Notes under the pieces: model-generated
What the model saw: the letters and a program-made list of their open reading frames with translations, nothing else
Told to the model about the DNA's origin: nothing
The model's database searches: none
Part shown: in pieces, positions 829 through 52,297 of the stretch
How positions within the stretch are numbered: position 1 is the stretch's first letter
How the letters are laid out: every line of letters begins with the position of its first letter
Assembly (NCBI GenBank): GCA_043228905.1
Contig: JBHGNT010000011.1
Span: forward strand, 15,376,001-15,440,000
Direction: 5' to 3'
DNA length: 64,000 nt
Source of the DNA: Azolla caroliniana
Lineage: Eukaryota > Plantae > Polypodiophyta
Program-made: the position numbers and the translations under genes

Positions 829-1166
829 ACGGGTTAAGCTTTAACCAGTTTGGGAGTTTCCGAACTTGAACAGAACTTGTTCCTAAACTAGTTAAGGCTA
901 ACTAGGTTTAAGGAATCGGTTTAGCCAAGCGATTAAGCTTTAACCGGTTTGATTTAGCTTGAGCTGTCTGAAACCTATCTCAAACCAATTAAGGAAACTC
1001 AAGTTTAAACCTGACTGCCAAACTGTTTAAAATGGTCTAATGGTTTAGTTCAAGATTGAGCCAAGCACTACCGATTATCAACACGAAGTGAACAACATTC
1101 AAAACCAACCTTAGGCCAAATTTTTGGTTACATTGCCTCCGTACATGCAAAACACATTTCTTAAAG

Positions 1167-15849: not shown

Positions 15850-17166
15850 TTTCTGCAGCAGCCTGCTCTGATACCAAATTGATGAAAAAAATCAATCGAC
15901 ACTTTCCAAACTTCACCTCTCGGCCACAACCAAGGAAACACACGAATCGTTGTTGCAGAAAATGGGAAATGTAGAAGTAAATAAGTGGACACACGATTTA
16001 ACGTGGAAAACCCTGTACGGGAAAAACCACAGGAGTACAAGACTCCGAACCAAAACTATGCACAGAGAAGTATACAATGGCGAGCTGCAAAGCGACGACC
16101 TTGAGCTCGCTGTCCTCGCCACAGGCGGCGGAAATACACAGAGGCGTCGACCTCTTCCTCTCTCACGCTCTATCTCTCTCACAGCTGCTCTCTCTTCACT
16201 CCTCTTGAGTGGAAAAACAGAAAAATGAGTAGCCCCATTAAAACTGTTTGCCCTAAGTCATATTTATACACATATGACTTTGGGGCTATTTACAACTATA
16301 GCCTCAAGGGCCCTTGGCAAACATATTCACAGATATGTCCCCGCATCCGGATCTCTCTCCGGTGTCGTGAAGAAAACCGTCCATAGGCGGAATCGGCGCA
16401 CCAAGGCGTGGGAACCGGTTCTTCACGCGCGCACGCTCCGAGTTGTACATAGAAACGAATTGAGAGGATAATCGGCAGGAACGGGCCCTAACTCAAGTGG
16501 AGACAAAGACCGCGCGAACAGTCTTTTCGGTCGCGCGCGCGAACTGTACGAGTCGGCGGCGTAACTACGCGGATCCGTGAAAAACGGAGCGGATCCCTGT
16601 CCAAAAGGGACAGGGAATAAAGCTGACACGACGGCCTGTTCGTCGGCCTATATAAGGAGCGGGAAAGAGCTGTTGCAGGGATCTGGCGCGGAGAGGACGA
16701 AGTGCTGTCGGACCGTTTCTGGACGCTTCGCTCTCTCTGTTTCCTTCCTTCTTGAGCTCCAAAGCTTTCTGTGCAGGGTTCCGGGGAGGCTCGCGCTGTT
16801 TCGAGGAACGCCCGAGTGCTTCCGGCAGCACCTCCGACCTGCTACCCCCCCCCCATTTCCCCGTTTGTGCGTCGAAGCGAACAGGCATCGGCATCTGTTC
16901 GCCGGCCTGTTCGGTTGCAACCAACCTGTGCCCCATCGGGGGTTGTAGTCGTGTTAGCCATTTTGTTAATACACATATTTAGTCATTCGCATCCGTCTGT
17001 GTCGGTGTCTGTTCGCGTTCTCCGTGCTGAAGGGCCGTGTCCCTGTGTATCCCCGGTCCTGCGTAGCCGGTTCTCTCTCTTTCTCCTCCCTCGCTTGCTC
17101 TTTGGTTCGAGACCCCCGCGGTCCCGCCTCTATTCCACACGCACTTGCGTAATATCTCGACATCTT

Positions 17167-17184
17167 TGGTGAACCCGACGTGAA
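17167..17184 (+). promoter_or_regulatory. Primer-binding site complementary to the 3' end of tRNA-Trp
   Basis: TGGTGAACCCGACGTGAA is the reverse complement of TTCACGTCGGGTTCACCA, the 3' end of plant cytosolic tRNA-Trp. It lies 4 nt after the LTR. Confidence 0.85.
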
Positions 17185-17206
17185 AGAGGCGGCAGAAGAG
17201 CAGAAG

Positions 17207-19333
17207 ATGAGGGGGTCGGATCTCGCAGAGGCCATGGCTTCGGCCGTGGATCGGATCGTAAACGCGCGCGAGGGTACCGGTGCCCTCGACAGAGCTATTG
17301 AGGCGGTCGTCGGCACGATCGGCCGGTTCGATGGGAGGGATGCCACGAAGTATCTGGCGTCCTACGGTGCAGAAATGTTGATGCGGGACATTCCGGAAGA
17401 AAGGCGTCTTGCCGGTTTTCCCCGAGTGGCAATGCCGAGCATCCATGCGGAGGTGCTCGAGGTGCGGGCGGAGAGCCGTACCTGGGAGGAGTTCGAAGGT
17501 CGGCTCCTAGAGAAATACGGGCTGGACGACGCGCTCCGGCTTTCGAAGCGAAGGTTCATGGAATGGGTGGAGTCCCCGGGGAAGGGAAGAAACGCGTCGG
17601 CACTCCTCCGGGAGTTCGAGGAAAACTTTGCGCGCCTTTCGGCGCTCGACCGAACCATCCTGGACACGAGCCGGGTCTTGCTGTTTGTCAAGTCGGTCGA
17701 CGAGCGGGATCGGGAGCAAGTGGGCCTCTTGCTGGAAACCGAAGACGGGCTCACTACCGACTGGGCGGCTGTCAGGAAGGTCTGTGGCCGTTTCGACAAA
17801 CGGCGAGAATGGGCGGATAACGGGGCGACTGGGTCGGGCTCGGTCGCAGCAAGGAAGCTCGAACCAGCGCCACAGGTGCGCAAGGAAGAGACCCGGGAGT
17901 GGTTGGAAACCGGTTCGGCTTCGACCGGCGTAGTCAGAGGCTCAACCGGAGGAGCGGCGCTGGAGGAATTGACGAAGGCGATAAAGGACCTCCAAATCGC
18001 GCAGGCCCGAAGGGAAGGAGGCGAACCGGCTCGTGACCGACGGCCGGCGGCAGGAAACAGGTGCATGTGGTGCGATGAAGTCGGCCACGTTCGGAAGGAC
18101 TGCGGCGACTTCGCGGAGGCGCTGAGGGACCGGGTGGTGTACCTGTGGGAAGGACGGGTGCATGCCAGCGACACCCGAAGGGCCCTGAGCCGAAACGACG
18201 GAAAGGGTGGTATGAAAAGGTTGATGGAAGAGGCGGCGGCCCGACACGCGGAAACCGTCCACTACTCGGCGTCGGCCGGCATTCGAGTCGGGGGCGGCGA
18301 GGCCCGAAAGGAAAGCAAAGCCGGATTCTGGCCGACGATGCTGGAAGGCCTTGCCGGTGCAGGGCTTAAAAGGGAGGAATCGGACCGTGCGGAGAAACGG
18401 GTACGGGAGATGACCGGGTGGAGCGACCCGGTCGAGGAAAGGACGGGCTTCGTGGAAGCCGCTTGGCGGAACTACGAGGCTCTGGTAGAAGAGAAGCGGG
18501 TGGGAAAACCCGGGACGACCGGGCCCTCACAACGATACGAGACCCGGTCCGGGCCACGACGGGACGAAGCCGGCAGGGCCGGTACGCAAGATAAACCCCA
18601 GAAGGGCGGGTACCGTCTGGGGACGGAGATAGAAAGAACCACGGACTTACGAAAGGTCCTGGAGGAACGGATCCTCGACAGCAAGGTGGAGCTGTCGCTA
18701 CGGGAGGTGCTTGGAATCGCCAAGAAGGAGTTCCACGACTCCATCGTGGACTTGGTGAAACGGAAGAGGCTGTCAACGGAGACAGAACCGGAAAGACCGG
18801 TGGAAGTGCGGACGACGCACCTAGACGACATGGCGCTGGGAGACGAGTGGGCGGAAAGCCACTATTCGAGACCGCACTGGGCCCGAGCGACCACGGAAAC
18901 CCCGGTGAAGATCGGCGATGTCCAGGAACCGGTGATAGCTTTGGTGGACCACGGATCGGAGATCAATTTGATGTCCATGGACTTCTATAAGAAGGGCAAA
19001 TGGCCGATCAACACCAAGCACGGGTGGAAAATAAGGGCAGCAACGCACGCCACCGAGGAACTGCACGGGGCCTGTCCGAATGTGCGAGTCAAGATCGGCG
19101 ACGTCGAGATTGACCAGCACTTCTTCGTGCAGGAGACGTCTTCGCATCCGGTCATACTGGGAGAGCCGTACATCACGGCGGCGCGAATGGAGACCAAGGT
19201 GCTGGACAATGGTTCGGCCTATGCGCGGGTCAAGAGCCAGGACGGGCGCCATTCGGTCCAGTTTTTGACGGTTAGGCCGAACCACGAGCGTAACCGCGAC
19301 TCCCTCGGTTCCGATAACCGAGAGGATTTTTAG
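17207..19333 (+). CDS. Gypsy D ORF1: Gag plus aspartic protease
   Basis: Uninterrupted ORF with first ATG at 17207. CCHC knuckle CMWCDEVGHVRKDC. Retropepsin-like ALVDHGSEINLM...VILGEPY near the C-terminus. Confidence 0.9.
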   Translation: MRGSDLAEAMASAVDRIVNAREGTGALDRAIEAVVGTIGRFDGRDATKYLASYGAEMLMRDIPEERRLAGFPRVAMPSIHAEVLEVRAESRTWEEFEGRLLEKYGLDDALRLSKRRFMEWVESPGKGRNASALLREFEENFARLSALDRTILDTSRVLLFVKSVDERDREQVGLLLETEDGLTTDWAAVRKVCGRFDKRREWADNGATGSGSVAARKLEPAPQVRKEETREWLETGSASTGVVRGSTGGAALEELTKAIKDLQIAQARREGGEPARDRRPAAGNRCMWCDEVGHVRKDCGDFAEALRDRVVYLWEGRVHASDTRRALSRNDGKGGMKRLMEEAAARHAETVHYSASAGIRVGGGEARKESKAGFWPTMLEGLAGAGLKREESDRAEKRVREMTGWSDPVEERTGFVEAAWRNYEALVEEKRVGKPGTTGPSQRYETRSGPRRDEAGRAGTQDKPQKGGYRLGTEIERTTDLRKVLEERILDSKVELSLREVLGIAKKEFHDSIVDLVKRKRLSTETEPERPVEVRTTHLDDMALGDEWAESHYSRPHWARATTETPVKIGDVQEPVIALVDHGSEINLMSMDFYKKGKWPINTKHGWKIRAATHATEELHGACPNVRVKIGDVEIDQHFFVQETSSHPVILGEPYITAARMETKVLDNGSAYARVKSQDGRHSVQFLTVRPNHERNRDSLGSDNREDF

Positions 19334-19389
19334 AGAGGGCTGCCAAGGCGTGGGGCCGCGACAGTCCGGACACCCCGGGAAAACCCCAC
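19324..19389 (+). promoter_or_regulatory. Putative -1 programmed ribosomal frameshift signal (G_GAT_TTT heptamer plus H-type pseudoknot)
   Basis: The heptamer at 19324-19330 abuts the ORF1 TAG. A 6-nt spacer follows. Stem 1 is GGGCTG (19337-42) / CAGTCC (19362-67); stem 2 is GTGGGG (19350-55) / CCCCAC (19384-89). The -1 frame is open from 19318 into pol. Confidence 0.75.
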
Positions 19390-22300
19390 ACCTGTACGAT
19401 AAAACCGAAGAAACCTTGTACCATAGGTAGGGAATTTTTGTTCTCCGACAACGGAGCGTGTGCGATGGTCGGCATCGCCGGCCGAGAGAAAACAAAGACG
19501 GAGGCGAGACTTCGAGCGTGCGGAGTTCTCGGCCCGGACGAGGAAATCAACGGAGCCGTGGAGGCGGTCTCATTCGACGACACCTTGGGAATGCTGGGAA
19601 AGGTAGTCGAAGAAGGCCTTAACGACGACCGGACGATACCGGTGTGTTCCGAGGAGATGTACGAAGTCATCGCGGACTTCGGTCGAGGGCTCGAGTCAGT
19701 TCGGACGGCCCACGTAAACACCAAGTACAAGACTGTGGACCGGAAGGTAAGGCCAGTAGCGGCACCCTTACCGGAGGACAGCGCGTCGAGAATCAAAGGG
19801 GTTGCATCAGACCCTAGTCTACGAGATCCGGCCTGCATAGGGCACACCTTCACTGACGAGACGCTCCGAGAGCTCAAAATCGGTGGGGGCGGGTTCCTAC
19901 TGCCGGCGGAGGAAGACCGGTTTCGGAGAATGCTCGGAAGGCACGGGAAAGCCTTCGCATTCTCGCCGGAGGAAATCGGGTGCGTTGACCCGACGATCGT
20001 GGAGCCGATGGTGATATTCACGGTACCGCATGTACCATGGAATCTCAAGCCAATCCCGGTTCCGAGAGCTCACATCCCGAAGTTGATGGAGCTGCTGAGG
20101 CAGAAAGTTGATATGGGAATTCTTGAGCCGTCGAGCGCCCCATATTCGAATCGATGGTTTACCGTACCGAAGAAAAACGGTTCGCTGCGCTTCATCCAGG
20201 ACCTGCAGCCGGTCAATCGAGTGACCATTCGGAACGCAGGAATCGGACCGACCATAGACGAGTTCGCGGAGGCCTTCGCCGGAAGGTCAATTTACTCGGT
20301 CGGGGATCTATACTCAGGGTACGACCAGTTCCAGCTGGCCGTGGAGAGCAGAGACCTTACGACGATGCGAACTCCCCTCGGCCTAGTTCGGATGTGTACA
20401 CTGCCGCAAGGAGGGACCAACTCGGTGGCCCACATGGTGAATGCGATGAACAAGGTTCTGAGGGACTGTGTCCCGGACATTACCATGCCGTTTCTGGACG
20501 ACATCCCGATCAAGGGATGCCCGGTGGAAGAAAAGGACGAGACGATCGGGCCGGACGGATGCCGGCGATTCGTGGCGACGCACGTCGACGACTGCGAGAA
20601 GGTGCTGCAAAGGCTAGAGGATGCGAGACTCACCTTCTCCGGGGAGAAGTCGGCCTTCGGGCAGTCAGAAATCATGGTGGTCGGACACCTGTGCGGACCA
20701 TATGGCCGGAAACCGTCTCCGGCGAAGGTAGAAGCCATCTCCGCGATGAAGCCCGACTGCAGCTCGGTCACGGAAGTACGGAGATTCCTGGGGGCATGCG
20801 CGTTCTACCACATATGGATCCCGCATTACGCACACGTCGCGGAGCCACTGTACGGGTTGCTGAAAAAGGGGCGAAGGTTCGAATGGCTAGACAAGCACGC
20901 GGAATCGGTCCGGAAGCTGAAAGAGGCCCTTGCAGCGGCACCGGCACTCCGGAAGGCGGTTTACGGGAAGGGTACCCCGGTATTCATAACGGTGGATACC
21001 AGTCCGACCGGGATCGGATGGGTCGTGAACCAGGAAGACGAGGACGGCAATCGGTTTCCGATCCGATTCGGCGCGAAAGTCCTCAGTGAACGGCAGCGAG
21101 GGTACGCCCAGGTTAAACGCGAACTCTGGGGTATTGTTTCGGCGGTTAAGGCCGACAAAGACTACCTGATAGGGACGGAAGTGATCATCGAGACGGATTG
21201 CCTGCCGATTCTCGGTATGGTTTCCGGATGCGCGACTCCGGACCTGGCGATGCTCAGGTGGATAGCGTACATCAAGTCCCTGGACCCGGAAATACGACAC
21301 ATTTCCGGGAAAGACAACGCCATGGCCGACATGCTTTCGAGGGCGAGGTTCGACGACGAGGGCGGCATGGTTTCGGAAGACGAAGAAGTCGGCGTGGATT
21401 TCTTCGAGGCGGCATACATAACGACCGACGGGGAATGGCTGCAGATCGGCGGGTTTTTGAAGACGATGACGCCCGATGCGTCATGGACGAAGGACGAGGC
21501 CAACCGGATCCGGAAGAAAGCATATCGATTCTTTCTCCGAGATGGGCATCTATGGAAGCACCCGAAGAAGAGGGACGGCGTCCCGCTCCGAGTGGTGGCG
21601 ATGAAGGAAGAACAGGAGGAGCTACTGGCGGCCTACCACGACAGCCCTTGGGCTGGACACCGTGGAACGTGGGCGACGTTTGAGAAGCTGAAGGGAAAGT
21701 ACTGGTGGCCGGGATTGTACCGGGACGTGCATCGGTTCGTGTCAACTTGCGAGAGTTGTCAGATGCACTCGATAGTCCGACACCGGGACGGGCTTCACCC
21801 TACGTACCCTCCGACTATCCACTTCAAATGGATGGTAGATCTGGTGACGATGCCGATGGGGGTAGGACAGATGCGGTATCTGGTCCTAGCGCGGGAAGAC
21901 CTGACGAACCAGGTGGAAGGCCGAGCCCTTCAGAACAAGACGACCGCGGCCGTGTGTCGGTTCCTAGTCGAGGACGTGATATGCCGGTACGGGTGCGTCG
22001 GGAAGATCGTGGCTGACCGAGGGGAGTTGGACGCCGAAGAGGCCGCGGAGCTGTTCGACCGGCTTGGAGTCAAGCTCTCGCTCACCACTGCGTACAATCC
22101 GGAGGCGAATGGAAAGGTGGAGCGCGGACACGGACCGATCGTCAAGGCGTTGATTCGGGCATGCGGAGGCCAAGTCGGTAACTGGCCGCGGCTGCTACCT
22201 TATGCTTTGTGGGCAGACCGGACCACGCACAGTTCGGTAACCGGGTACATGCCGACGGAGCTCATGTTCGGCCAGAAGCCGATCATGCCGATTGAACGGA

Positions 22301-22773
22301 CGATCTCCTCGTGGGCAACGGTCGACTGGAGGGACGAGATGAGCCGGGAGGAGTTGTTGGTCGCACGTATACGACAGCTCGAGCGGAGGCCGGAGGACGT
22401 GGCACTGGCTACGGAGAAGCTCCGGGTGGCGAGGACAAAGAACAAAGCCCGGTTCGACCGAACGCACCGGCTACGACCGAAGAAAATCGAAGAAGGTGAC
22501 TGGGTGCTCGTCTACGACAGCAGCCTCGACAACCAGCACCGAGCCACACGGAAGTTCGCACGAAGGTGGTTCGGGCCTTACGTGGTACGGAGCGCCAATG
22601 ACAACGGGACATATCACCTGGCGGAACTTGACGGCACGAGAATGGCGATACCGGTTGCAGGGAAGCGGATCAAAGCGTTCAAGAAGCGACACGACGACGA
22701 GCCAGACCCGGCTCTCCTGGTCGGCAGTGACGAACGATCCGAAAATGAAGAAGAACCGACGGGCGAGGAATGA
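19330..22773 (+). CDS. Gypsy D ORF2: RT, RNase H, integrase (-1 frame relative to ORF1)
   Basis: RT GDLYSGYDQF...LPQG...FLDD; RNase H VDTS...KREL...ETDC...NAMADMLSR; integrase HDS...GH...CESC, VDLV...ADRGE...NGKVER, and a WFGPY motif. RT-RH-IN is the Gypsy order. Confidence 0.92.
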   Translation, partial: LERAAKAWGRDSPDTPGKPHTCTIKPKKPCTIGREFLFSDNGACAMVGIAGREKTKTEARLRACGVLGPDEEINGAVEAVSFDDTLGMLGKVVEEGLNDDRTIPVCSEEMYEVIADFGRGLESVRTAHVNTKYKTVDRKVRPVAAPLPEDSASRIKGVASDPSLRDPACIGHTFTDETLRELKIGGGGFLLPAEEDRFRRMLGRHGKAFAFSPEEIGCVDPTIVEPMVIFTVPHVPWNLKPIPVPRAHIPKLMELLRQKVDMGILEPSSAPYSNRWFTVPKKNGSLRFIQDLQPVNRVTIRNAGIGPTIDEFAEAFAGRSIYSVGDLYSGYDQFQLAVESRDLTTMRTPLGLVRMCTLPQGGTNSVAHMVNAMNKVLRDCVPDITMPFLDDIPIKGCPVEEKDETIGPDGCRRFVATHVDDCEKVLQRLEDARLTFSGEKSAFGQSEIMVVGHLCGPYGRKPSPAKVEAISAMKPDCSSVTEVRRFLGACAFYHIWIPHYAHVAEPLYGLLKKGRRFEWLDKHAESVRKLKEALAAAPALRKAVYGKGTPVFITVDTSPTGIGWVVNQEDEDGNRFPIRFGAKVLSERQRGYAQVKRELWGIVSAVKADKDYLIGTEVIIETDCLPILGMVSGCATPDLAMLRWIAYIKSLDPEIRHISGKDNAMADMLSRARFDDEGGMVSEDEEVGVDFFEAAYITTDGEWLQIGGFLKTMTPDASWTKDEANRIRKKAYRFFLRDGHLWKHPKKRDGVPLRVVAMKEEQEELLAAYHDSPWAGHRGTWATFEKLKGKYWWPGLYRDVHRFVSTCESCQMHSIVRHRDGLHPTYPPTIHFKWMVDLVTMPMGVGQMRYLVLAREDLTNQVEGRALQNKTTAAVCRFLVEDVICRYGCVGKIVADRGELDAEEAAELFDRLGVKLSLTTAYNPEANGKVERGHGPIVKALIRACGGQVGNWPRLLPYALWADRTTHSSVTGYMPTELMFGQKPIMPIERTISSWATVDWRDEMSREELLVARIRQLERRPEDVALATEKLRVARTKNKARFDRTHRLRPKKIEEGDWVLVYDSSLDNQHRATRKFARRWFGPYVVRSANDNGTYHLAELDGTRMAIPVAGKRIKAFKKRHDDEPDPALLVGSDERSENEEEPTGEE

Positions 22774-24742
22774 AGACGGGCCGGTTTTCTCCGTCCCAAC
22801 TCTCTTGGCGCATACCGGAGGATGCGCGGTTAGGTGGGGGCGGATGTCGTGAAGAAAACCGTCCATAGGCGGAATCGGCGCACCAAGGCGTGGGAACCGG
22901 TTCTTCACGCGCGCACGCTCCGAGTTGTACATAGAAACGAATTGAGAGGATAATCGGCAGGAACGGGCCCTAACTCAAGTGGAGACAAAGACCGCGCGAA
23001 CAGTCTTTTCGGTCGCGCGCGCGAACTGTACGAGTCGGCGGCGTAACTACGCGGATCCGTGAAAAACGGAGCGGATCCCTGTCCAAAAGGGACAGGGAAT
23101 AAAGCTGACACGACGGCCTGTTCGTCGGCCTATATAAGGAGCGGGAAAGAGCTGTTGCAGGGATCTGGCGCGGAGAGGACGAAGTGCTGTCGGACCGTTT
23201 CTGGACGCTTCGCTCTCTCTGTTTCCTTCCTTCTTGAGCTCCAAAGCTTTCTGTGCAGGGTTCCGGGGAGGCTCGCGCTGTTTCGAGGAACGCCCGAGTG
23301 CTTCCGGCAGCACCTCCGACCTGCTACCCCCCCCCCCATTTCCCCGTTTGTGCGTCGAAGCGAACAGGCATCGGCATCTGTTCGCCGGCCTGTTCGGTTG
23401 CAACCAACCTGTGCCCCATCGGGGGTTGTAGTCGTGTTAGCCATTTTGTTAATACACATATTTAGTCATTCGCATCCGTCTGTGTCGGTGTCTGTTCGCG
23501 TTCTCCGTGCTGAAGGGCCGTGTCCCTGTGTATCCCCGGTCCTGCGTAGCCGGTTCTCTCTCTTTCTCCTCCCTCGCTTGCTCTTTGGTTCGAGACCCCC
23601 GCGGTCCCGCCTCTATTCCACACGCACTTGCGTAATATCTCGACACCGGGTACATTCGTCATCCGGCTCCGAAGCCGGGGTCTTCATCATCCGGTTCCGA
23701 AACCGCAACCGGGCTTGTCGGCATTCATCTCTGACATCCGACCATCCCATCCGAAAGGGACCGTAATCCCAACATCTGTGTTATTCCTTGTCTCTCTCTC
23801 TCACTCTCTCTCTCTCATACACACACATAACTCACATCTCTTCCGCTTCACAAGAATCATATCCGATTCTTTACATAAAGGATGTAAGCTCAAATGTCTG
23901 AGCTCCATCAAATATAATTTAGGCATTGACAATGTCGTCAACTATAATAATGTGCCATTTAAAAGCCAATGTGGAAAGCCATCACATCTCCATATTTATC
24001 ACCAAATATCACTTTCCTCTACACACTTAGTGCTGATTTTGAAATCAAGAATGAAGCTTTGAGAGGACTAGCTGAGCAAAACATACTTGAACACTATTTT
24101 TTAGTCATTGCAATGACTCATCATGAGAATTCACCATGATGGCTCACGAAAATAGTTTACCATGGTAAGAGTTGTTGATGGCCCCCTACATTATTTTGGA
24201 AATTCAACACGTTGTCGTGAAGAAAACCAGCCATAGGCGGAATTGGAGAGAAAGCGCGTAAACCGGCCCTTACACGGATGAACGCGTGACTGGATACTTT
24301 GCACGCGAACCGGTGGATGTAACTACTAAGCCGCACGCATTTATTAGAGGGGATTGTGCGTATCCCGGTTGGGGGGGGGGGGGGGGACAGGGAATAAAGG
24401 CAAGAGGAGAAGAGAAGGACGATATCGCGCGCGAGGAGAAGGAAGGAGGTTGCGGCAGAACGGAAGGCGGAGCTCTCTCTCTACGACTCGAATCGTCGCT
24501 CCCTGCGGGTGTCGGGAGGTCGCTGCCTCTGATTCGTGGACAACCCGTGTGCTTCCAGCAGAGTCGCTCCCCTTCCCCTTTGTTTCCTTGAGTCGTTGAC
24601 TGTAGTCGGTGTGCGTGAGTAGGGTCCTCGTGTCGGGCCCGTCGCCACTTTGTCGGTTGTAATCGTCAGAGTCTGTAATCTCTGTCATTATAATTAAGTG
24701 TTGTGTTCTGTTTCTCTCTTCTCGCTTCTACGTGTTGGTGAA

Positions 24743-24783
<41 letters not shown>

Positions 24784-25916
24784 CCTCGGTCCAAGACCCT
24801 CGTGGTCCCGCCCCTTTCTACACGTACGCGCGTAACAACGCGACATATATTCGTGAACCCGACGTGAAAGGGCGGCAAAGGAGTCGAAAGATGAGGGGAT
24901 CGGAGCTAGCAGAGGCAATGGCGGTGGCCGTCGACCGGCTGGTGAGCGCTCGTGAGGGAACGGGTACCCTCGACAGAGCCATTGAATCGATCGTCGGCTC
25001 TATAGGCCGTTTCGGAGGGAAAGACGGCCACAAGTTATTTGGAGGCTTACCGGGCCGAAATGATCATGAGGGATATCCCAGTGTACAGGCGGCTGTCCGG
25101 ATTCCCTCGGGTGGTGACGCCGGGCATCCATGCGAAGGTGCTCGAGGTGTTGGCCGGATGCCAGACATGGGAGGAGTTCGAGCTGTAGCTCCTCGAGAAG
25201 TACGGGTTTGACGACTCGCTCCGGCTGTCGAGGCGGGACTTCATGGCGTGGGTGGAAAGCCCCAAAAAAGCGAGGAACACGTTGGTGCTCCTCCAGGAGT
25301 TCGAAAAACGGTTCGCGCGGCTGTCGACGCTGGACCGGACGGTGCTCAAGACGAGTCGAGTGCTGTTGTTTGTCAAGTCGGTGGATGCGCTCGACAGGGA
25401 AAAGGTGGGTCCCCTACTGGAAACGGATGAAGGGCTCACAACGGATTGGGCCGTGGTAAAACGGGTTTGCAGCCGTTTCGACAAACGGCGCGATTGGAGC
25501 AACGGAAGCACATCGGGGTCGGAGCCGGTCCCGGGGAGGAGGCTCGAGGAGCCGGTTTCGGTGCCGGCTGGGAGGAAGGAAGAGACCCGAATCTAGCCGA
25601 AATCGGGGTCGGCATCGAATGACATGGTCAGAGGCCCGTCCGGAGGAGCGGCTCTGGAGGAGCTATCACAGATGGTGCGCGACCTGCAGATCGCACAGGC
25701 CCGAAGACACAGCAGTGAACAACCTCGCGACCGGAGGCTGTCGACTGGGCAACGGTGCATGTGGTGTGACGCGATCGGTCACATTCGGAAGGACTGCGCG
25801 GATTTCGCCGACGCGCTCAGGACCAACGTGGTGTACCTCTGGAACGGGCGGGTGCACGCGAGCGAGACCTGGAGAGCCCTGGAATACGGGGCGCGGCGGA
25901 ATGAAGAGGTTGATGG

Positions 25917-26724
25917 TGATGGGAACCTATGTTCCTTATGCGCAATGCTCGGCCACAACCGAGATTCTTTTCATACACAGAAAAACGGGAAATACAACAC
26001 GATACAAAGGAGAGGAAGATACACACACACTACACAGGAGGTTAACGTGGAAAACCCCAAACTGGAGGAAAAACCACGGCAGCTCACATGCTGCAAACTG
26101 TCACTATGTATGAATGTACAAAACAGTGAGTTCTCAGAGGCAACGACCTCGGACTCACGCTCTTCGCCACAGGCGGCGGTTACAACAGAGGCAACGACCT
26201 CGTTCTCTCTCTCTCTCTCTGTACACTATTACGTACTCTCACTTCTTCTTGCACCAACAAGAAAAGTAACAACAACAACAGTAACTAAAAGTTTGCCCTA
26301 AGTCATATTTATACTAATATGACTTTTCGGCTATTTACAAATGTAGCCTCGATGGGCTCTCAGAAACATATTTACGAATATGTCTCTTCCTCCGGTTCGT
26401 ACCGGGCTTGCACCATCCAGTTCTCCGTAGCCGGGTACTCCTCATCCGGTTCATACCAAGCCTGCACCATCCGGCTCTCCGTAGCCGGGTACTCCTCATC
26501 CGGTTCATACCAGGCCTGCACCATCCGGCTCTCCGTAGCCGGGTACTCCTCATCCGGTTCATACCGGGTCTGCACCATCCGGCTCTCCGTAGCCGGGTAA
26601 TCCTCGTCCGGTTCATACCGGGTCTGCACCATCCGGCTCTCCGTAGCCGGGTATTCCTCATACCGTTTCTGTTCGTCGGCACTGTTCTTCTCTCTTCCCA
26701 TCCGGAGGGACCTGTCTCCCAACA
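25917..26724 (-). mobile_element. Solo LTR of a Copia C-related family
   Basis: Ends TGATG...CCCAACA as in the C LTRs. It shares the blocks AACGTGGAAAACCC, CGCCACAGGCGGCGG and TTTGCCCTAAGTCATATTTATAC with them. TSD GATGG/AATGG (one mismatch). The flanks rejoin as E gag MKRLM|EEA. Confidence 0.85.
26391..26660. repeat. 54-bp tandem repeat, 5 copies, inside the solo LTR
   Basis: Unit TCCGGTTCATACCAGGCCTGCACCATCCGGCTCTCCGTAGCCGGGTACTCCTCA starts at 26391, 26445, 26499, 26553 and 26607. Confidence 0.93.
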
Positions 26725-30635: not shown

Positions 30636-31424
30636 TGTCGGGGTTGCTACGCCCTTGCGTGTAGAAAGGAGGAGGGACCACGGGGGTCTCGAACCGAAGA
30701 GCAAGAGAGAGAGGAGTAAGAGAGAGAGACCCGATTACACAGAACCGAAGATCCGATTGCGCAGAACCGACGATTGCACAGGGACACGGCCCAACAAACA
30801 GAGATCACAAATAGACGCCGACGCAGATGGACGCAACAACGAGAGATATGTGCTTATGAACGCAAGAAAATAACAGACTAAAGTATTACAACCCACGGTG
30901 GGGCACAAAATAGATACTAACGGAAACGAACAGGGCGGCGAACAGCTGCCGACCCCTGTATGTCGCGACGCACAGAAGGGGAAAACAGGTCGGAGGTGCT
31001 GCAGGACGCACTCGGGGCGTTCCACGGAACAGCGCAAGCCTCCTCGAAACCTGCACAGGTACGCGATGGAGCAGAAGACAGAGAGAGCAGGAGTGAGAGA
31101 GAAGCTCCGAAATCGGTTCGGCAGCACTTTGTCCTCTCCGCGGGAGATGTCCGACTTCTATTCTTCCTCTTCCTTTTATAGCCCGTCAAGAGGCCGTTTG
31201 GCATTAACTGCATACCAACCGAATCTGCCCACCTAGGATCCTCGTATGTACCTACTTCGTCCTTAGGTACTTCTTGGCGCGCGCGTGTGTGTAGAGCCGT
31301 TTCCCACGCCTTGTTCCTCCGATTCCTCTTGTGGGCGGTTTTCTTCACGACATCCGCCCCCACCTAACCGCGCATCCGCCGGCATGCGCCAAATTGAGTT
31401 GGCACGGAGAAAACCGGCCCGCCT

Positions 31425-34400
31425 TTACTCTTCGCCTGCCGGCCCTTCCTCGGCCTCGGATCGGTCGTCGCTGCTATCCAGGAGAATCGGGTCAGGTTCG
31501 TCGTCGTGCCGCTTCTTGAAAGCTTTGATCCTCTTCCCGGCCACGGGTATCGCTATTCTCGTTCCGTCGAGTTCCGCCAGATGATACGTCCCGTTGTCGT
31601 TGGCGCTCTGTACCGTGTACGGCCCGAACCATCTCCGTGCGAACTTCCGCGTTGCTCGGTGCTGGTTGTCGAGGCTGCTGTCGTAGACGAGCACCCAGTC
31701 ACCTTCGTCGATTTTCTTCGGTCGTAGCCGGTGCGTTCGGTCGAACCGGGCTTTGTTCTTTGTCCTCGCCACCCGGAGCTTCTCCGTAGCCAGTGCCACG
31801 TCCTCCGGTCTCCGCTCGAGCTGTCGTATACGTGCGGCCAACAACTCCTCCCGGCTCATCTCGTCCCTCCAGTCGACCGTTGCCCACGAGGAGATCGTCC
31901 GTTCAATCGGCATGATCGGCTTCTGGCCGAACATGAGCTCCGTCGGCATGTACCCGGTTACCGAACTGTGCGTGGTCCGGTCTGCCCACAAAGCATAAGG
32001 TAGCAACCGCGGCCAGTTACCGACTCGGCCCCCGCATGCCCGAATCAACGCCTTGACGATCGGTCCGTGTCCGCGCTCCACCTTGCCATTCGCCTCCGGA
32101 TTGTACGCAGTGGTGAGCGAGAGCTTGACTCCAAGCCGGTCGAACAGCTCCGCGGCCTCTTCGGCGTCCAACTCCCCTCGGTCAGCCACGATCTTCCCGA
32201 CGCACCCGTACCGGCATATCACGTCCTCGACTAGGAACCGACACACGGCCGCGGTCGTCTTGTTCTGAAGGGCTCGGCCTTCCACCTGGTTCGTCAGGTC
32301 TTCCCGCGCTAGGACCAGATACCGCATCTGTCCTACCCCCATCGGCATCGTCACCAGATCTACCATCCATTTGAAGTGGATAGTCGGAGGGTACGTAGGG
32401 TGAAGCCCGTCCCGGTGTCGGACTATCGAGTGCATCTGACAACTCTCGCAAGTTGACACGAACCGATGCACGTCCCGGTACAATCCCGGCCACCAGTACT
32501 TCCCCTTCAGCTTCTCAAACGTCGCCCACGTTCCACGGTGTCCAGCCCAAGGGCTGTCGTGGTAGGCCGCCAGTAGCTCCTCCTGTTCTTCCTTCATCGC
32601 CACCACCCGGAGCGGGACGCCGTTCCTCTTCTTCGGGTGCTTCCACAAATGCCCATCTCGGAGAAGGAATCGATATGCTTTCTTCCGGATCCGGTTGGCC
32701 TCGTCCTTCGTCCATGACGCATCGGGCGTCATTGTCTTCAAAAACCCGCCGATCTGCAGCCATTCCCCGTCGTACTTGCTCGCGTCGAACTCGTTAAGCG
32801 CCGGAGTGCTCATCCCGTCGGTCGTTATGTATGCCGCCTCGAAGAAATCCACGCCGACTTCTTCGTCTTCCGAAACCATGCCGCCCTCGTCGTCGAACCT
32901 CGCCCTCGAAAGCATGTCGGCCATGGCGTTGTCTTTCCCGGAAATGTGTCGTATTTCCGGGTCCAGGGACTTGATGTACGCTATCCACCTGAGCATCGCC
33001 AGGTCCGGAGTCGCGCATCCGGAAACCATACCGAGAATCGGCAGGCAATCCGTCTCGATGATCACTTCCGTCCCTATCAGGTAGTCTTTGTCGGCCTTAA
33101 CCGCCGAAACAATACCCCAGAGTTCGCGTTTAACCTGGGCGTACCCTCGCTGCCGTTCACTGAGGACTTTCGCGCCGAATCGGATCGGAAACCGATTGCC
33201 GTCCTCGTCTTCCTGGTTCACGACCCATCCGATCCCGGTCGGACTGGTATCCACCGTTATGAATACCGGGGTACCCTTCCCGTAAACCGCCTTCCGGAGT
33301 GCCGGTGCCGCTGCAAGGGCCTCTTTCAGCTTCCGGACCGATTCCGCGTGCTTGTCTAGCCATTCGAACCTTCGCCCCTTTTTCAGCAACCCGTACAGTG
33401 GCTCCGCGACGTGTGCGTAATGCGGGATCCATATGTGATAGAACGCGCATGCCCCCAGGAATCTCCGTACTTCCGTGACCGAGCTGCAGTCGGGCTTCAT
33501 CGCGGAGATGGCTTCTACCTTTGCCGGAGACGGTTTCCGGCCATATGGTCCGCACAGGTGTCCGACCACCATGATTTCTGACTGCCCGAAGGCCGACTTC
33601 TCCCCGGAGAAGGTGAGTCTCGCATCCTCTAGCCTTTGCAGTACCTTCTCGCAGTCGTCGATGTGCGTCGCCACGAATCGCCGGCATCCGTCCGGCCCGA
33701 TCGTCTCGTCCTTTTCTTCCACCGGGCATCCCTTGATCGGGATGTCGTCCAGAAATGGCATGGTGATGTCCGGGATGCAGTCCCTCAGAACCTTGTTCAT
33801 CGCATTCACCATGTGGGCCACCGAGTTGGTCCCTCCTTGCGGCAGTGTACACATCCGAACTAGGCCGAGGGGAGTTCGCATCGTCGTAATGTCTCTGCTC
33901 TCCACGGCAAGCTGGAACTGGTCGTACCCTGAGTATAGATCCCCGACCGAGTAAATTGACCTTCCGGCGAAGGCCTCCGCGAACTCGTCTATGGTCGGCC
34001 CGATCCCTGCGTTCCGAATGGTCACTCGATTGACCGGCTGCAGGTCCTGGATGAAGCGCAACGAACCGTTTTTCTTCGGTACGGTAAACCATCGATTCGA
34101 ATATGGGGCGCTCGACGGCTCGAGAATTCCCATATCAACTTTCTGCCTCAGCAGCTCCATCAACTTCGGGATGTGAGCTCTCGGAACCGGGATTGGCTTG
34201 AGATTCCATGGTACATGCGGTACCGTGAAAATCACCATCGGCTCCACGATCGTCGGGTCAACGCACCCGATTTCCTCCGGCGAGAATGCGAAGGCTTTCC
34301 CGTGCCTTCCGAGCATTCTCCGAAACCGGTCTTCCTCCGCCGGCAGTAGGAACCCGCCCCCACCGATTTTGAGCTCTCGGAGCGTCTCGTCGGTGAAGGT

Positions 34401-34916
34401 GTGCCCTATGCAGGCCGGATCTCGTAGACTAGGGTCCGATGCAACCCCTTTGATTCTCGACGCGCTGTCCTCCGGTAAGGGTGCCGCGACTGGCCTTACC
34501 TTCCGGTCCACAGTCTTGTACTTGGTGCTTACGTGGGCCGTCCGAACTGACCCGAGCCCTCGACCGAAGTCCGCGACGACTTCGTACATCTCCTCGGAAC
34601 ACACCGGTATCGTCCGGTCTTCGTTAAGGCCTTCTTCGACTACCTTTCCCAGCATTCCCAAGGTGTCGTCGAATGAGACCGCCTCCACGGCTCCGTTGAT
34701 TTCCTCGTCAGGGCCGAGAACTCCGCACGCTCGAAGTCTCCCCTCCGCCTTTGTCTTCTCTCGGCCGCCGATGCCGACTATCGTACACGCTCCGCTGTCG
34801 GAGAACAAAAATTCCCTACCTATGGTACAAGGTTTCTTCGGTTTTATCGTACAGGTGTGGGGTTTTCCCGGGGTGTCCGGACTGTCGCGGCCCCACGCCT
34901 TGGCAGCCCTCTCTAA
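31425..34916 (-). CDS. Gypsy G ORF2: RT, RNase H, integrase
   Basis: An uninterrupted 1127-aa ORF extends upstream to the G_GAT_TTT heptamer at 34922-34916. Motifs match those of D. Confidence 0.92.
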   Translation of the reverse strand, partial: LERAAKAWGRDSPDTPGKPHTCTIKPKKPCTIGREFLFSDSGACTIVGIGGREKTKAEGRLRACGVLGPDEEINGAVEAVSFDDTLGMLGKVVEEGLNEDRTIPVCSEEMYEVVADFGRGLGSVRTAHVSTKYKTVDRKVRPVAAPLPEDSASRIKGVASDPSLRDPACIGHTFTDETLRELKIGGGGFLLPAEEDRFRRMLGRHGKAFAFSPEEIGCVDPTIVEPMVIFTVPHVPWNLKPIPVPRAHIPKLMELLRQKVDMGILEPSSAPYSNRWFTVPKKNGSLRFIQDLQPVNRVTIRNAGIGPTIDEFAEAFAGRSIYSVGDLYSGYDQFQLAVESRDITTMRTPLGLVRMCTLPQGGTNSVAHMVNAMNKVLRDCIPDITMPFLDDIPIKGCPVEEKDETIGPDGCRRFVATHIDDCEKVLQRLEDARLTFSGEKSAFGQSEIMVVGHLCGPYGRKPSPAKVEAISAMKPDCSSVTEVRRFLGACAFYHIWIPHYAHVAEPLYGLLKKGRRFEWLDKHAESVRKLKEALAAAPALRKAVYGKGTPVFITVDTSPTGIGWVVNQEDEDGNRFPIRFGAKVLSERQRGYAQVKRELWGIVSAVKADKDYLIGTEVIIETDCLPILGMVSGCATPDLAMLRWIAYIKSLDPEIRHISGKDNAMADMLSRARFDDEGGMVSEDEEVGVDFFEAAYITTDGMSTPALNEFDASKYDGEWLQIGGFLKTMTPDASWTKDEANRIRKKAYRFLLRDGHLWKHPKKRNGVPLRVVAMKEEQEELLAAYHDSPWAGHRGTWATFEKLKGKYWWPGLYRDVHRFVSTCESCQMHSIVRHRDGLHPTYPPTIHFKWMVDLVTMPMGVGQMRYLVLAREDLTNQVEGRALQNKTTAAVCRFLVEDVICRYGCVGKIVADRGELDAEEAAELFDRLGVKLSLTTAYNPEANGKVERGHGPIVKALIRACGGRVGNWPRLLPYALWADRTTHSSVTGYMPTELMFGQKPIMPIERTISSWATVDWRDEMSREELLAARIRQLERRPEDVALATEKLRVARTKNKARFDRTHRLRPKKIDEGDWVLVYDSSLDNQHRATRKFARRWFGPYTVQSANDNGTYHLAELDGTRIAIPVAGKRIKAFKKRHDDEPDPILLDSSDDRSEAEEGPAGEE

Positions 34917-37039
34917 AAATCCTCTCGGTTATCGGAACCGAGGGAGTCGCGGTTACGCTCGTGGTTCGGCCTAACCGTCAAAAACTGGACCGAATGGCGC
35001 CCGTCCTGGCTCTTGACCCGCGCATAGGCCGAACCGTTGTCCAGCACCTTGGTCTCCATTCGAGCCGCCGTGATGTACGGCTCTCCCAGTATGACGGGGT
35101 GCGATGACGACTCCTGCACGAAGAAGTGCTGGTCTATCTCGACATCGCCGATCTTGACCCGTACATTCGGGCAGGCCCCGTGAAGTTCCTCGGTGGCGCG
35201 CGTCGCCGCCCTTATCTTCCACCCGTGCTTGGTGTTGATCGGCCATTTGCCCTTCTTATAGAAGTCCATGGACATCAGGTTGATTTCCGATCCGTGGTCC
35301 ACCAAAGCTACTACCGGTTCCTGGACATCGCCGATCTTTACCGGGGTTTCCGTGGTCGCTCGGGCCCAGTGTGGCCGCGAATAGTGGCTCTCCGCCCACT
35401 CGTCTTTCAGCGCCATGTCGTCCAGGTGCGTCGTCCGCACCTCTACCGGTCTTTCCGGTTCTGTCTCCGTTGACAGCCTCTTCCGTTTCACCAAGTCCAC
35501 GATGGAGTCGTGGAACTCCTTCTTGGCGATTCCCAGCACCTCCCGTAGCGACAACTCCACCTTGCTGTCGAGGATCCGTTCCTCCAGGACCTTTCGTAAG
35601 TCCGTGGTTCTTTCTATCTCCGTCCCCAGACGGTACCCGCCCTTCTGGGGTTTATCTTGCGTACCGGCCCCGCCGGCTTCGTCCCGTCGTGGCCCGGACC
35701 GGGTCTCGTATCGTTGTGAGGGCCCGGTCGTCCCGGGTTTCCCCACCCGCTTCTCTTCTACCAGAGCCTCGTAGTTCCGGCAAGCGGCTTCCACGAAGCC
35801 CGTCTTTTCCTCGACCGGGTCGCTCCACCCGGTCATCTCCCGTACCCGTTTCTCCGCACGGTCCGATTCCTCCCTTTTAAGCCCTGCACCGGCAAGGCCT
35901 CCCAGCATCGTCGGCCAGAATCCGGCTTTGCTTTCCTTTCGGGCCTCGCCGCCCCCGACTCGAATACCGGCCGACGCCGAGTAGTGGACGGTTTCCGCAT
36001 GTCGGGCCGCCGCCTCTTCCATCAACCTCTTCATTCCGCCTCGCCCGTCGTTTCGGTTTAGGGCCCTTCTCGTGTCGTTGGCGTGAACCCGGCCTTCCCA
36101 TAGGTACACCACCCGGTTCCTCAGCGCCTCTGCGAAATCGCCGCAGTCTTTTCGGATGTGGCCGACCCCGTCGCACCACATGCACCTGTTCCCTGCCGCC
36201 GGCCGTCGGTCACGAGCAGGTCCTCCGTCTTCTCTGCGGGCCTGTGCGATTTGGAGGTCTTTTATCGCCCTCGTCAGTTCCTCCAACGCAGCTCCTCCAG
36301 TCGAGCCTCTGATCACGCCGGTCGGAGCTGAACCGGATTCCAGCCACTCCCGAGTCTCTTCCCTTCGCACCGGCTGCGCCGGCTCGAGTTTCCTCGCCGC
36401 GACTGAGCCCGAACCGGTTGCTCTGTCATCCTCCCATTCTCGCCGTTTGTCGAAACGGCCGCAGGCTCTCTTGACCGCCGCCCAGTCGGCTGTCAGCCCG
36501 TCTTCGGTTTCTAGCAGGGCGCCCACGTGACTCCGATCCCTCTCGTCAACCGATTTGACGAACAGCAGGACCCGGCTTGTATCCAGGACCATCCTGTCAA
36601 GCGCCGAAAGGCGCGCGAAGTTCTCCTCGAACTCCCGGAGGAGTGCCGACGCATTCCTTCCTTTCCCGGGAGACTCCACCCACTCCATGAAGCTTCGCTT
36701 CGAAAGCCGGAGCGCGTCGTCCAGTCCGTATTTCTCCAGGAGCCGACCTTCGAACTCCTCCCAGGTACGGCTCTCCGCCCGCACCTCGAGCACCTCCGCG
36801 TGAATGCTCGGCATCGCCACTCGGGGAAAACCGGCAAGACGCCTGTCTTCCGGAATGTCCCGCATTAACATTTCCGCACCGTAGGACGCCAGGTACTTCG
36901 TGGCATCTTTTCCAGTGAATCGACCGATCGTTCCGACGACCGCCTCAATAGCTCTATCGAGGGCGCCGGTGCCCTCGCGCGCGCTTACTATCCGATCCAC
37001 GGCCGAAGCCATGGCCTCTGCAAGATCCGCCCCCTTCAT
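34913..37039 (-). CDS. Gypsy G ORF1: Gag plus protease (708 aa)
   Basis: The ATG lies just after the PBS. Contains CMWCDGVGHIRKDC and ALVDHGSEINLM, and ends REDF-TAG as in D. Confidence 0.92.
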   Translation of the reverse strand: MKGADLAEAMASAVDRIVSAREGTGALDRAIEAVVGTIGRFTGKDATKYLASYGAEMLMRDIPEDRRLAGFPRVAMPSIHAEVLEVRAESRTWEEFEGRLLEKYGLDDALRLSKRSFMEWVESPGKGRNASALLREFEENFARLSALDRMVLDTSRVLLFVKSVDERDRSHVGALLETEDGLTADWAAVKRACGRFDKRREWEDDRATGSGSVAARKLEPAQPVRREETREWLESGSAPTGVIRGSTGGAALEELTRAIKDLQIAQARREDGGPARDRRPAAGNRCMWCDGVGHIRKDCGDFAEALRNRVVYLWEGRVHANDTRRALNRNDGRGGMKRLMEEAAARHAETVHYSASAGIRVGGGEARKESKAGFWPTMLGGLAGAGLKREESDRAEKRVREMTGWSDPVEEKTGFVEAACRNYEALVEEKRVGKPGTTGPSQRYETRSGPRRDEAGGAGTQDKPQKGGYRLGTEIERTTDLRKVLEERILDSKVELSLREVLGIAKKEFHDSIVDLVKRKRLSTETEPERPVEVRTTHLDDMALKDEWAESHYSRPHWARATTETPVKIGDVQEPVVALVDHGSEINLMSMDFYKKGKWPINTKHGWKIRAATRATEELHGACPNVRVKIGDVEIDQHFFVQESSSHPVILGEPYITAARMETKVLDNGSAYARVKSQDGRHSVQFLTVRPNHERNRDSLGSDNREDF

Positions 37040-37803
37040 TTCCTACTCTTCTGCCGCCTCTTTCACGTCGGGTTCACCAAGATGTCGGGGTTGCTACGCC
37101 CTTGCGTGTAGAAAGGAGGAGGGACCACGGGGGTCTCGAACCGAAGAGCAAGAGAGAGAGGAGTAAGAGAGAGAGACCCGATTACACAGAACCGAAGATC
37201 CGATTGCGCAGAACCGACGATTGCACAGGGACACGGCCCAACAAACAGAGATCACAAATAGACGCCGACGCAGATGGACGCAACAACGAGAGATATGTGC
37301 TTATGAACGCAAGAAAATAACAGACTAAAGTATTACAACCCACGGTGGGGCACAAAATAGATACTAACGGAAACGAACAGGGCGGCGAACAGCTGCCGAC
37401 CCCTGTATGTCGCGACGCACAGAAGGGGAAAACAGGTCGGAGGTGCTGCAGGACGCACTCGGGGCGTTCCACGGAACAGCGCAAGCCTCCTCGAAACCTG
37501 CACAGGTACGCGATGGAGCAGAAGACAGAGAGAGCAGGAGTGAGAGAGAAGCTCCGAAATCGGTTCGGCAGCACTTTGTCCTCTCCGCGGGAGATGTCCG
37601 ACTTCTATTCTTCCTCTTCCTTTTATAGCCCGTCAAGAGGCCGTTTGGCATTAACTGCATACCAACCGAATCTGCCCACCTAGGATCCTCGTATGTACCT
37701 ACTTCGTCCTTAGGTACTTCTTGGCGCGCGTGTGTGTGTAGAGCCGTTTCCCACGCCTTGTTCCTCCGATTCCTCTTGTGGGCGGTTTTCTTCACGACAA
37801 CGC

Positions 37804-38371
37804 ACTATGGGCGGACCGGACTACGCACAGTTGGGTGATAGGGTTCATGCCGGCGGAGCTAATGTATGGACAGAGGCCGATCACGCCGGTGGAGCGGATG
37901 GTTTCTTCGTGGGCGATGGTAGATTGGAAGGACGAAATGAGCCGGGAGGAGTTGCTGGCAGCGCGGATTCGGCAACTCGAGCGGAGGCCGGAGGACGTGA
38001 TACGGGCGAACGAAAGGCTGCGAGCGGCAAGGGAGCGGAACAAGATCCGGTTCAACCGAACGCATCGATTGCGACCAAAGAAGATCGAGGAAGGCGACTA
38101 GGTCTTGGTATACGACAGCAGCCTCGACAATCAGCACAAGGCGGTGCAAAAGTTTGCTAGCAGATGCTTCGGGCCCTACATGGTGACGAGCGCGAACGGC
38201 AACGGCACGTACCACCTCGCGGAACTCAACGGGACACGGTTAGCGGTGCTGGTGGCCGGAAAGCGGATCAAAGCTTTCAAAAAGCGGTTCGAAGACGAGC
38301 CGGAGCCTGCGAGCGGGAGCGACAACGACGATCAGTTCGGGTCCGGCGGAGAACCGGAGAGCAACGAGTGA
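37804..38371 (+). pseudogene. Gypsy E integrase, C-terminal part
   Basis: Translation resumes LWADRTTHS...RLRPKKIEEGD*...FGPY...GKRIKAFK, continuing the sequence cut at 30635. Confidence 0.88.
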
Positions 38372-39247
38372 GGCCGGTTTAGGGTAGGCGCATGCCGGTG
38401 GATGCGCGGTTTGGTGGGGGTGGATGTCGTGAAGAAAACCGGCCATAGGCGGAATTGGAGAGAAAGCGCGTAAACCGGCCCTTACATGGATGAACGCGTG
38501 ACTGGATACTTTGCACGCGAACTGGTGGATGTAACTACTAAGCCGCACGCATTTATTAGAGGGGATTGTGCGTATCCCGGTCAAGGGGGGGGGACAGGGA
38601 ATAAAGGCAAGAGGAGAAGAGAAGGATGATATCGCGCACGAGCAGAAGGAAGGAGGTTGCGGCAGAACGGAAGGCGGAGCTCTCTCTCTACGACTCGAAT
38701 CGTCGCTCCCTACGGGTGTCAGGAGGTCGCTATCTCTGCTTCGTGGACAGCCCGTGCGCTTCCAGCAGAGTCGCTCCCCTTCCCCTTTGTTTCCTTGAGT
38801 CGATGACTGTCGTCGGTGTGCGTGAGTAGGGTCCCCGTGTCGGGCCCGTCGCCGCTTTGTCGGTTGTAATCGTCAGAGTCTGTAATCTCTGTCATTATAA
38901 TTAAGTGTTGTGTTCTGTTTCTCTCTTCTCGCTTCTACGTGTTGGTGAATCTTTCTCTCTCTCTCTCTCTCGCTCCTCGGTCCAAGACCCCCGTGGTCCC
39001 GCCCCTTTCTACACGTACGCGCGTAACAACGCGACAACGTACACAATGATGGTATACATTACATGATGGTTCGTGTTGAAATGTAAAACCTCAATACAAT
39101 GGTTTATTGTGAGCTTTACATGATGGCTCCGATTGAGGTTTAAAACCTGAAAATGATGGTCTCTTGTGAGGTATATGGTTTTTGTCAAGGTTTTTAGCCT
39201 GAACACAATCTTTATATGTTTGTCCTTGCCAAAACCTTGAAGGGCCT

Positions 39248-52051: not shown

Positions 52052-52297
<246 letters not shown>

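What the first reader, a model, noticed from the sequence alone, without database searches (positions are those of the whole stretch)
16359..39040. Gypsy lineage that appears to integrate at CpG-centred 4-bp targets
Seen: the three complete Gypsy copies have 4-bp TSDs CCGG (D), ACGT (E) and ACGC (G), and the single visible flank of Z is ACGG (829-832). All four are N-CG-N. The base after the TSD is a purine in 4/4 and the base before it is a pyrimidine in 3/3, giving a symmetric YNCGNR. E found such a site in AT-rich, CpG-poor DNA. The five Copia TSDs here are 5 bp with no such pattern (TAAAG, CAACG, TCTGT, GATGG, GGCCT). Established: plant LTR elements mostly make 5-bp TSDs with weak preference, whereas sequence-biased 4-bp targets are known from insect errantiviruses such as ZAM (CGCG). 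Inference: this integrase, which has no chromodomain, prefers CpG, possibly methylated CpG. That would steer it into other GC-rich TEs and explain the nesting. The sample is only four sites.
Basis: partly seen in the sequence, partly recalled or inferred. Interest (0 to 1): 0.8.

Follow-up and report, generated by a model that had tools for sequence, protein, structure and literature searches.

The report
CpG-targeting Gypsy elements, Phygy-like
A family of jumping genes in what is likely a fern sits almost only at four-base sites centred on CG, a habit already published for the moss 'Phygy' group to which it most likely belongs; whether its inserting enzyme senses methylated CG is untested.

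Summary
D, E and G have 4-bp TSDs CCGG, ACGT, ACGC; Z's far flank is ACGG as predicted. Of 2,348 LTR starts not preceded by the PPT, 1,973 (84%) have a central CG, against 3.0% background; 39 of 39 perfect TSDs are NCGN and none is 5 bp. The motif is VCGB (95%), best ACGT; YNCGNR is only a weak bias (62% Y). Neumann et al. 2019 list Phygy as 4-bp NCGN, tRNA-Trp-primed and chromodomain-free. These elements match those features; tree placement could not be tested. What seems new: a probable fern host, at least 1,600 copies with recent activity, a sharper motif, and nesting beyond what CpG share explains (25% of sites in the same lineage against 7% expected). Most likely the integrase kinks target DNA at the central step and reads CG directly. 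Methyl-CpG sensing is open. The scan noted NCGN targets before in another, probably fungal, genome. New member of a known kind; interest 0.35.

The parts
40..56 (-). Z primer binding site, 17 nt complementary to host tRNA-Trp(CCA) 3' end
61..828 (-). Z 5' LTR (768 bp, 95.2% to its 3' LTR outside the window); Z is 5.36 kb with only a gag remnant
829..832 (+). Z TSD ACGG; the same 4-mer precedes the far end
16359..16362 (+). D left TSD CCGG, inside an LTR of a minus-strand Copia (11157-23774)
16363..17162 (+). D 5' LTR (800 bp, TGTCG...CGACA; 99.9% to 3' LTR)
17167..17183 (+). D primer binding site, 17 nt complementary to tRNA-Trp
17153..19333 (+). D gag-protease ORF (stop to stop, 726 aa) with DUF4100 and a DHG protease motif
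19318..22773 (+). D pol ORF (RT, one RNase H, integrase; 1151 aa), -1 frame, 16-nt overlap with gag; no chromodomain or second RNase H found
21415..22722 (+). D integrase region; predicted fold closest to PFV and Ty3 integrases, SH3-like end then acidic tail
22830..22844 (+). D polypurine tract
22845..23645 (+). D 3' LTR
23646..23649 (+). D right TSD CCGG
24209..24212 (+). E left TSD ACGT in AT-rich, CpG-poor DNA
24213..39036 (+). Element E (LTRs 24213-24845 and 38425-39036, 93.4% identical; about 7.66 kb without G; ORFs broken; pol 79% to D)
30632..30635 (+). G left TSD ACGC, inside E pol
30636..37799 (-). Element G (7,164 bp; LTRs 717 bp, 99.9% identical; gag 34913-37042, pol 31425-34928, 96% to D pol; tRNA-Trp PBS 37063-37079)
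37800..37803 (+). G right TSD ACGC
39037..39040 (+). E right TSD ACGT

Best explanation
These are tRNA-Trp-primed, chromodomain-free Ty3/gypsy elements, most likely of the Phygy lineage, that sit at 4-bp CG-centred VCGB sites, likely because their integrase kinks the target at the central step and reads the CG bases directly. Shown: 4-bp TSD, near-absolute central CG, avoidance of T at the first and A at the last TSD base, ACGT as best site, a roughly symmetric flank bias. From established knowledge: retroviral intasomes with a 4-bp stagger favour a flexible central pyrimidine-purine step and avoid T/A at TSD positions 0/+3 (PMC4422553). Inferred: general bendability gives the VNNB frame and a YR centre; base-specific contacts narrow YR to CG. 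A one-residue-shorter D-R-G-E-L loop at the place of PFV Ala188 is a candidate contact. Because CpG is concentrated in GC-rich elements, this preference accounts for about half of the shift into repeats; the rest likely needs a regional factor (chromatin or methylation state, or loss of inserts elsewhere). After insertion the duplicated CG is likely methylated and decays to TG/CA.
For: Counts: 1,973 of 2,348 CGN; 1,880 of 1,973 VCGB vs 43% background; 39 of 39 perfect TSDs NCGN; 30 of 31 junctions of the 30 best D-type LTR loci have CG. CG is 13% of background YR steps but 92% of YR-centred junctions, so bendability alone does not explain it. ACGT is 5.6-fold enriched among CpG sites. Control: a Copia family in the same genome has CG at that offset in 0 of 19 non-PPT junctions among 30 loci (my count). 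Related families in metagenome contigs (pol 59-92% identical) show NCGN at 7 of 7 non-PPT junctions found among 80 loci. All 7 one-mismatch TSDs are C>T or G>A changes at CG (4) or next to the LTR's CA end (3), in older elements (median LTR identity 0.966 vs 0.994, p=0.004). Phygy features match. Fold closest to PFV and Ty3 integrases; loop conserved in 72-77 of 77 rows per position.
Against: No biochemical test; a host factor that presents CG sites is not excluded. No Phygy reference sequence was available, so membership rests on structural features. D and G (7.2-7.3 kb) are shorter than the Phygy range of 7.7-10 kb. The loop alignment to PFV is ambiguous by one residue. CpG share under-predicts nesting: GC of flanks 0.493 vs 0.459 expected (difference 0.012-0.058). 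49 of 100 sampled elements could not be paired within 9.4 kb and 5 of 51 pairs had no matching TSD (2 young ones with unlike flanks, 3 probably mis-called ends). Junction counts are not all independent events.
Confidence: 0.75

Rival explanations
1. The integrase prefers methylated CpG, so DNA methylation itself guides it into silenced, element-rich DNA without a chromodomain.
For: Sites lie in repeats more than CpG share predicts (61 of 71 vs 199 of 300) and in the same lineage 18 of 71 times vs 7.2% (95% interval 3-12%; p=0.002 against the upper bound). Copia flanks (mean GC about 0.41 over 19 junctions, my sum) match the genome mean 0.414, so the shift is lineage-specific.
Against: No methylation data were examined. 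14% of 71 sites and 7 of 31 young junctions have GC under 0.40, though such CpGs may also be methylated. TSD decay shows methylation after insertion only. No methyl-binding or chromo domain was found. ZAM binds its CG-rich target directly in a fly that, from recall, has almost no CpG methylation.
Confidence: 0.15
2. A host protein or nucleosome feature tethers the intasome to element-rich chromatin or to ACGT-core sites, and the CG bias is largely imposed by that partner.
For: Excess nesting; per-position consensus approaches CACGTG, which from recall is the G-box of bZIP/bHLH factors.
Against: Exact CACGTG is 1 of 39 sites. The fixed register of CG at the centre of the cut, and its conservation in diverged families, fit contacts by the integrase itself. 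A tether may still explain the regional excess.
Confidence: 0.08
3. The pattern is an artefact of boundary calling, local GC richness, or survival of inserts at CG sites.
For: LTR ends themselves contain CG (TGTCG...CGACA) and the window is CpG-rich.
Against: TSDs vary in their outer bases and match on both sides; 28-fold over background; youngest copies show it best; holds in AT-rich flanks; absent for Copia.
Confidence: 0.02

Closest known systems
Phygy clade, non-chromovirus Ty3/gypsy of REXdb (Neumann et al. 2019, PMC6317226; passages, section 15 and supplementary table 5 read)
   Same: 4-bp TSD with NCGN (186 elements, 100%), tRNA-Trp PBS (81%), no chromodomain, no extra RNase H, no extra ORF, coding region filling the interior.
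   Different: Described there as specific to Physcomitrella patens; here the host is probably a fern. Elements are 7.0-7.7 kb against 7.7-10 kb. The paper gives no finer motif or mechanism in what I read.
Ginger1 DNA transposons (Bao et al. 2010, PMC2836005; passages read)
   Same: Gypsy-type integrase, TGT ends, 4-bp CG-centred TSD (CCGG 75%, CCGT/ACGG 24%).
   Different: Cut-and-paste DNA transposons of animals with inverted repeats; best site CCGG, here ACGT.
Retroviruses with 4-bp TSD: PFV, MoMLV, PERV, XMRV (Serrao et al. 2015, PMC4422553; abstract, sections 6 and 14 read)
   Same: Central YR step favoured; T and A avoided at TSD positions 0 and +3; PFV is the best structural match.
   Different: Their YR gain is about 63% over chance and not CG-specific; here CG is about 28-fold.
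ZAM errantivirus (PMC2527525; passages read)
   Same: LTR element with a CG-rich target bound by its own integrase.
   Different: Target is CGCGCg; insect host; not among the relatives found here.
TatI and Selgy (PMC6317226 supplementary table 5)
   Same: 4-bp TSDs in non-seed plants; TatI also uses tRNA-Trp.
   Different: TatI has an extra RNase H and Selgy uses tRNA-Ala at about 5 kb; neither is listed with NCGN.

Membership tests
Phygy (REXdb) | 4-bp TSD with NCGN | tested here: met
   39 of 39 perfect TSDs; 1,973 of 2,348 junctions
Phygy (REXdb) | tRNA-Trp primer binding site | tested here: met
   17 nt match to a host tRNA-Trp(CCA) gene end in D, G, Z; 15 nt in E
Phygy (REXdb) | Ty3/gypsy order GAG-PROT-RT-RH-INT, no chromodomain | tested here: met
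   Pfam to E<=1 shows no Chromo hit; model ends in an SH3-like domain and low-confidence tail
Phygy (REXdb) | No extra RNase H, no extra ORF, coding region spans the interior | tested here: met
   One RNase H in D pol; pol ends 72 bp before the 3' LTR
Phygy (REXdb) | Length 7.7-10 kb | tested here: inconclusive
   D 7,283, G 7,164, E about 7,656 bp; most paired copies 6.6-7.3 kb. Slightly short; the paper calls size a weak classifier
Phygy (REXdb) | Groups with Physcomitrella Phygy in RT-RH-INT trees | not testable with these tools
   Reference FASTA too large to read; no Physcomitrium-named protein among 120 listed hits; named hits are Riccia sorocarpa at 51-65%
TatI (OTA) | Additional archaeal-type RNase H | tested here: not met
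   No second RNase H in D pol
Selgy | tRNA-Ala PBS, about 5 kb | tested here: not met
   PBS is tRNA-Trp; length over 7 kb
Chromoviruses incl. Galadriel (4/5-bp TSD) | Chromodomain and tRNA-Met PBS or self-priming | tested here: not met
Errantiviruses (ZAM) | env ORF after pol (recalled) | tested here: not met
   No room for a third ORF between pol and the 3' LTR

The most novel reading that the evidence does not exclude
An old lineage of DUF4100 Gypsy elements shared by non-seed plants and fungi has an integrase that reads methyl-CpG itself, using the host's silencing mark as its landing signal without any chromodomain.
Probability: 0.15. Interest if true: 0.85.

Novelty: new member of a known kind. 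Interest (0 to 1): 0.35.

Why it matters
The NCGN habit was a one-line note for a moss clade. Here it appears as a near-absolute CG requirement across about 2,000 junctions in a probable fern with very young copies, which makes this genome a good place to ask how a retro-integrase gains base-specific target choice and whether it senses cytosine methylation. It also matters for annotation: fern elements of this kind have 4-bp TSDs that decay quickly. If methyl-CpG sensing were shown, it would be a new route of heterochromatin targeting.

Tried and rejected
YNCGNR as a rule: rejected. G-box CACGTG as the target: 1 of 39. Generic YR flexibility alone: rejected. Naming the organisms of unnamed relatives: cluster look-up gave no organism names. 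Tree placement in Phygy: no reference obtainable. Ylt1 as fungal parallel: passages gave no TSD sequence. Cryptococcus and GingerRoot papers: no CG-centred target (passages). Atlas search with the LUX-like gene gave only Streptophyta. Young vs older flanks differed little (GC 0.478, n=22 vs 0.505, n=24), so age did not separate targeting from selection. A first repeat test by 300 random draws was redone by masking all background. Earlier-finding look-ups by place near and by sequence were empty. Sequencing-run tools were not used; they do not report methylation.

Full report
Observation. The window holds three complete Gypsy copies and the end of a fourth. D (16363-23645) is flanked by CCGG, E (24213-39036) by ACGT, G (30636-37799, minus strand, inside E) by ACGC, and Z by ACGG at 829-832. 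E's site is AT-rich, with 3 and 5 CpG per 300 bp on its two sides. Of the five Copia TSDs cited, three are exact 5-mers, one has a mismatch and one I could not find.

Genome-wide test. The 16-nt LTR start occurs 3,984 times; 1,636 follow the polypurine tract and are 3' LTRs. Of the other 2,348, 1,973 are preceded by CGN and 2,154 by YRN. So 84% have a central CG and a further 8% TG, CA or TA. This is a lower bound, because 3' LTRs with a mutated tract stay in the denominator; some junctions may be duplicates rather than separate events. Background CG is 3.0% per position in 60 evenly spaced 8-kb stretches of contig C1. For true duplications I fetched the first 100 tract-anchored LTRs on C1, chosen without regard to flank. 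51 had a partner LTR within 9.4 kb: 39 perfect 4-bp TSDs, all NCGN, none of 5 bp; 7 with one mismatch; 5 unmatched. Counting single 3' ends, 80 of 100 could be called, 1 was dropped as tandem, and 71 of 79 have CG. A Copia family showed CG at the same offset in 0 of 19 non-tract junctions among 30 loci (my count, as the script's tract filter failed).

Motif. 1,880 of 1,973 CG sites are VCGB against 43% of background CpG. ACGT is 5.6-fold enriched, ACGG/CCGT 2.7-fold, TCGN and NCGA depleted. A pyrimidine precedes the TSD in 1,230 of 1,973 (62%, mostly C; about 50% expected), and YNCGNR holds for 15 of 39 sites, so it is a bias and not a rule. CG is 13% of background YR steps but 92% of YR-centred junctions. 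All 7 one-mismatch TSDs are C>T or G>A changes, 4 in the CG and 3 at a G next to the LTR's CA end, and they belong to older elements. This fits methylation and deamination after insertion (inference).

Anatomy. D and G carry a gag-protease ORF with DUF4100 and an overlapping pol ORF with RT, one RNase H and integrase. No chromodomain or second RNase H is found at E up to 1. The primer site matches a host tRNA-Trp(CCA) gene end over 17 nt in D, G and Z and 15 nt in E. The integrase model (pLDDT 82, pTM 0.55) is closest to PFV and Ty3 integrases. Named pol relatives are from the liverwort Riccia sorocarpa; Atlas neighbours of gag are Streptophyta and Basidiomycota DUF4100 clusters, a lead only. 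In 80 metagenome loci, 7 non-tract LTR starts were found, in families 59-92% identical in pol, and all 7 follow NCGN.

Mechanism. Retroviruses with 4-bp TSDs favour a central YR step and avoid T and A at positions 0 and +3 (PMC4422553, abstract and sections 6 and 14). That is the VNNB frame seen here, so part of the motif is ordinary intasome geometry. The restriction to CG is far stronger and most simply reflects base contacts by the integrase (inference). The same paper notes small neutral residues at the PFV Ala188 position; here that loop is D-R-G-E-L, one residue shorter and nearly invariant, a candidate contact whose alignment is ambiguous.

Nesting and methylation. Flanks of 71 sites have GC 0.493, against 0.414 for random positions and 0.459 for CpG-weighted positions. 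61 of 71 flanks are repeats, against 146 of 300 random and 199 of 300 motif-weighted draws. 18 of 71 lie in the same lineage, against 7.2% expected (interval 3-12%). CpG preference therefore explains about half of the shift into repeats. The excess is compatible with methyl-CpG sensing, a chromatin tether, or loss of inserts elsewhere; nothing here separates them, and no methylation data were examined.

What is known. Neumann et al. 2019 state that Phygy elements prefer NCGN, and their supplementary table lists 186 Phygy elements with 4-bp NCGN TSDs, tRNA-Trp in 81%, 7.7-10 kb and no extra domain. They call Phygy specific to Physcomitrella. Passages of PMC6911290 confirm 4-bp TSDs for Phygy and GC-rich centres of 4-bp TSDs; passages of PMC12885004 report Phygy in a liverwort, enriched at centromeres. 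Additional files 1 and 3 of the Neumann paper were too large to read and could bear on motif detail and membership. A search for NCGN with LTR retrotransposon returned only the Neumann paper. I read passages of 3 of the 18 papers listed for 'Phygy' and saw no fern report or methylation test in them or in the listings; this is not proof of absence.

Verdict. The pattern is real and strong, and its core is already described for Phygy. These elements meet every Phygy feature I could test except a slightly shorter length; tree placement is untested. The additions are a probable fern host, a large young population, the VCGB/ACGT motif and excess self-nesting. Novelty: new member of a known kind. 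Interest 0.35; the methyl-CpG reading has probability about 0.15 and would deserve 0.85.

Noticed in passing
window 17153-19333 (+), protease part of gag ORF: The protease active-site motif reads DHG rather than DTG, also in 22 of 35 related proteins examined (6 have DTG, 7 no match).
   Followed up: partly
window 1-828 and L061:5369-10000: Z is a 5.36-kb non-autonomous element with only a gag remnant and no pol match, yet with a perfect NCGN TSD.
   Followed up: partly
window about 22015-22035 (+), D integrase core: The loop after the second catalytic Asp reads D-R-G-E-L, one residue shorter than PFV and Ty3, at the place of the target-contacting PFV Ala188; nearly invariant in 77 rows.
   Followed up: partly
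window 19318-19333 (+): gag-protease and pol overlap by 16 nt in the -1 frame around a T run before the stop, a possible frameshift site.
   Followed up: no
window 59017-60204 (-): LUX/PCL1-like GARP Myb gene in one ORF; best full-length named hits are Adiantum proteins (49-50% over 89%), pointing to a fern.
   Followed up: partly
window 26032-26667 (+), inside E: A stretch 70% similar to the Copia LTR at 11267-11688, followed by four 54-bp tandem copies, interrupts E's gag region.
   Followed up: no
L021, L053, L029 (G000): Several copies adjoin the ACGC near the 3' end of an LTR of their own family, a possible self-insertion hot spot or tandem structure.
   Followed up: no
L083, L086 (G000:C1): Elements with 99.7-100% identical LTRs but unlike flanks on the two sides, possibly recombinants between two copies.
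   Followed up: no
L306: Three tRNA-Trp(CCA) genes in tandem about 700 bp apart.
   Followed up: no
window 52004-52345: 12-bp tandem repeat array in AT-rich DNA, next to a Copia fragment.
   Followed up: no
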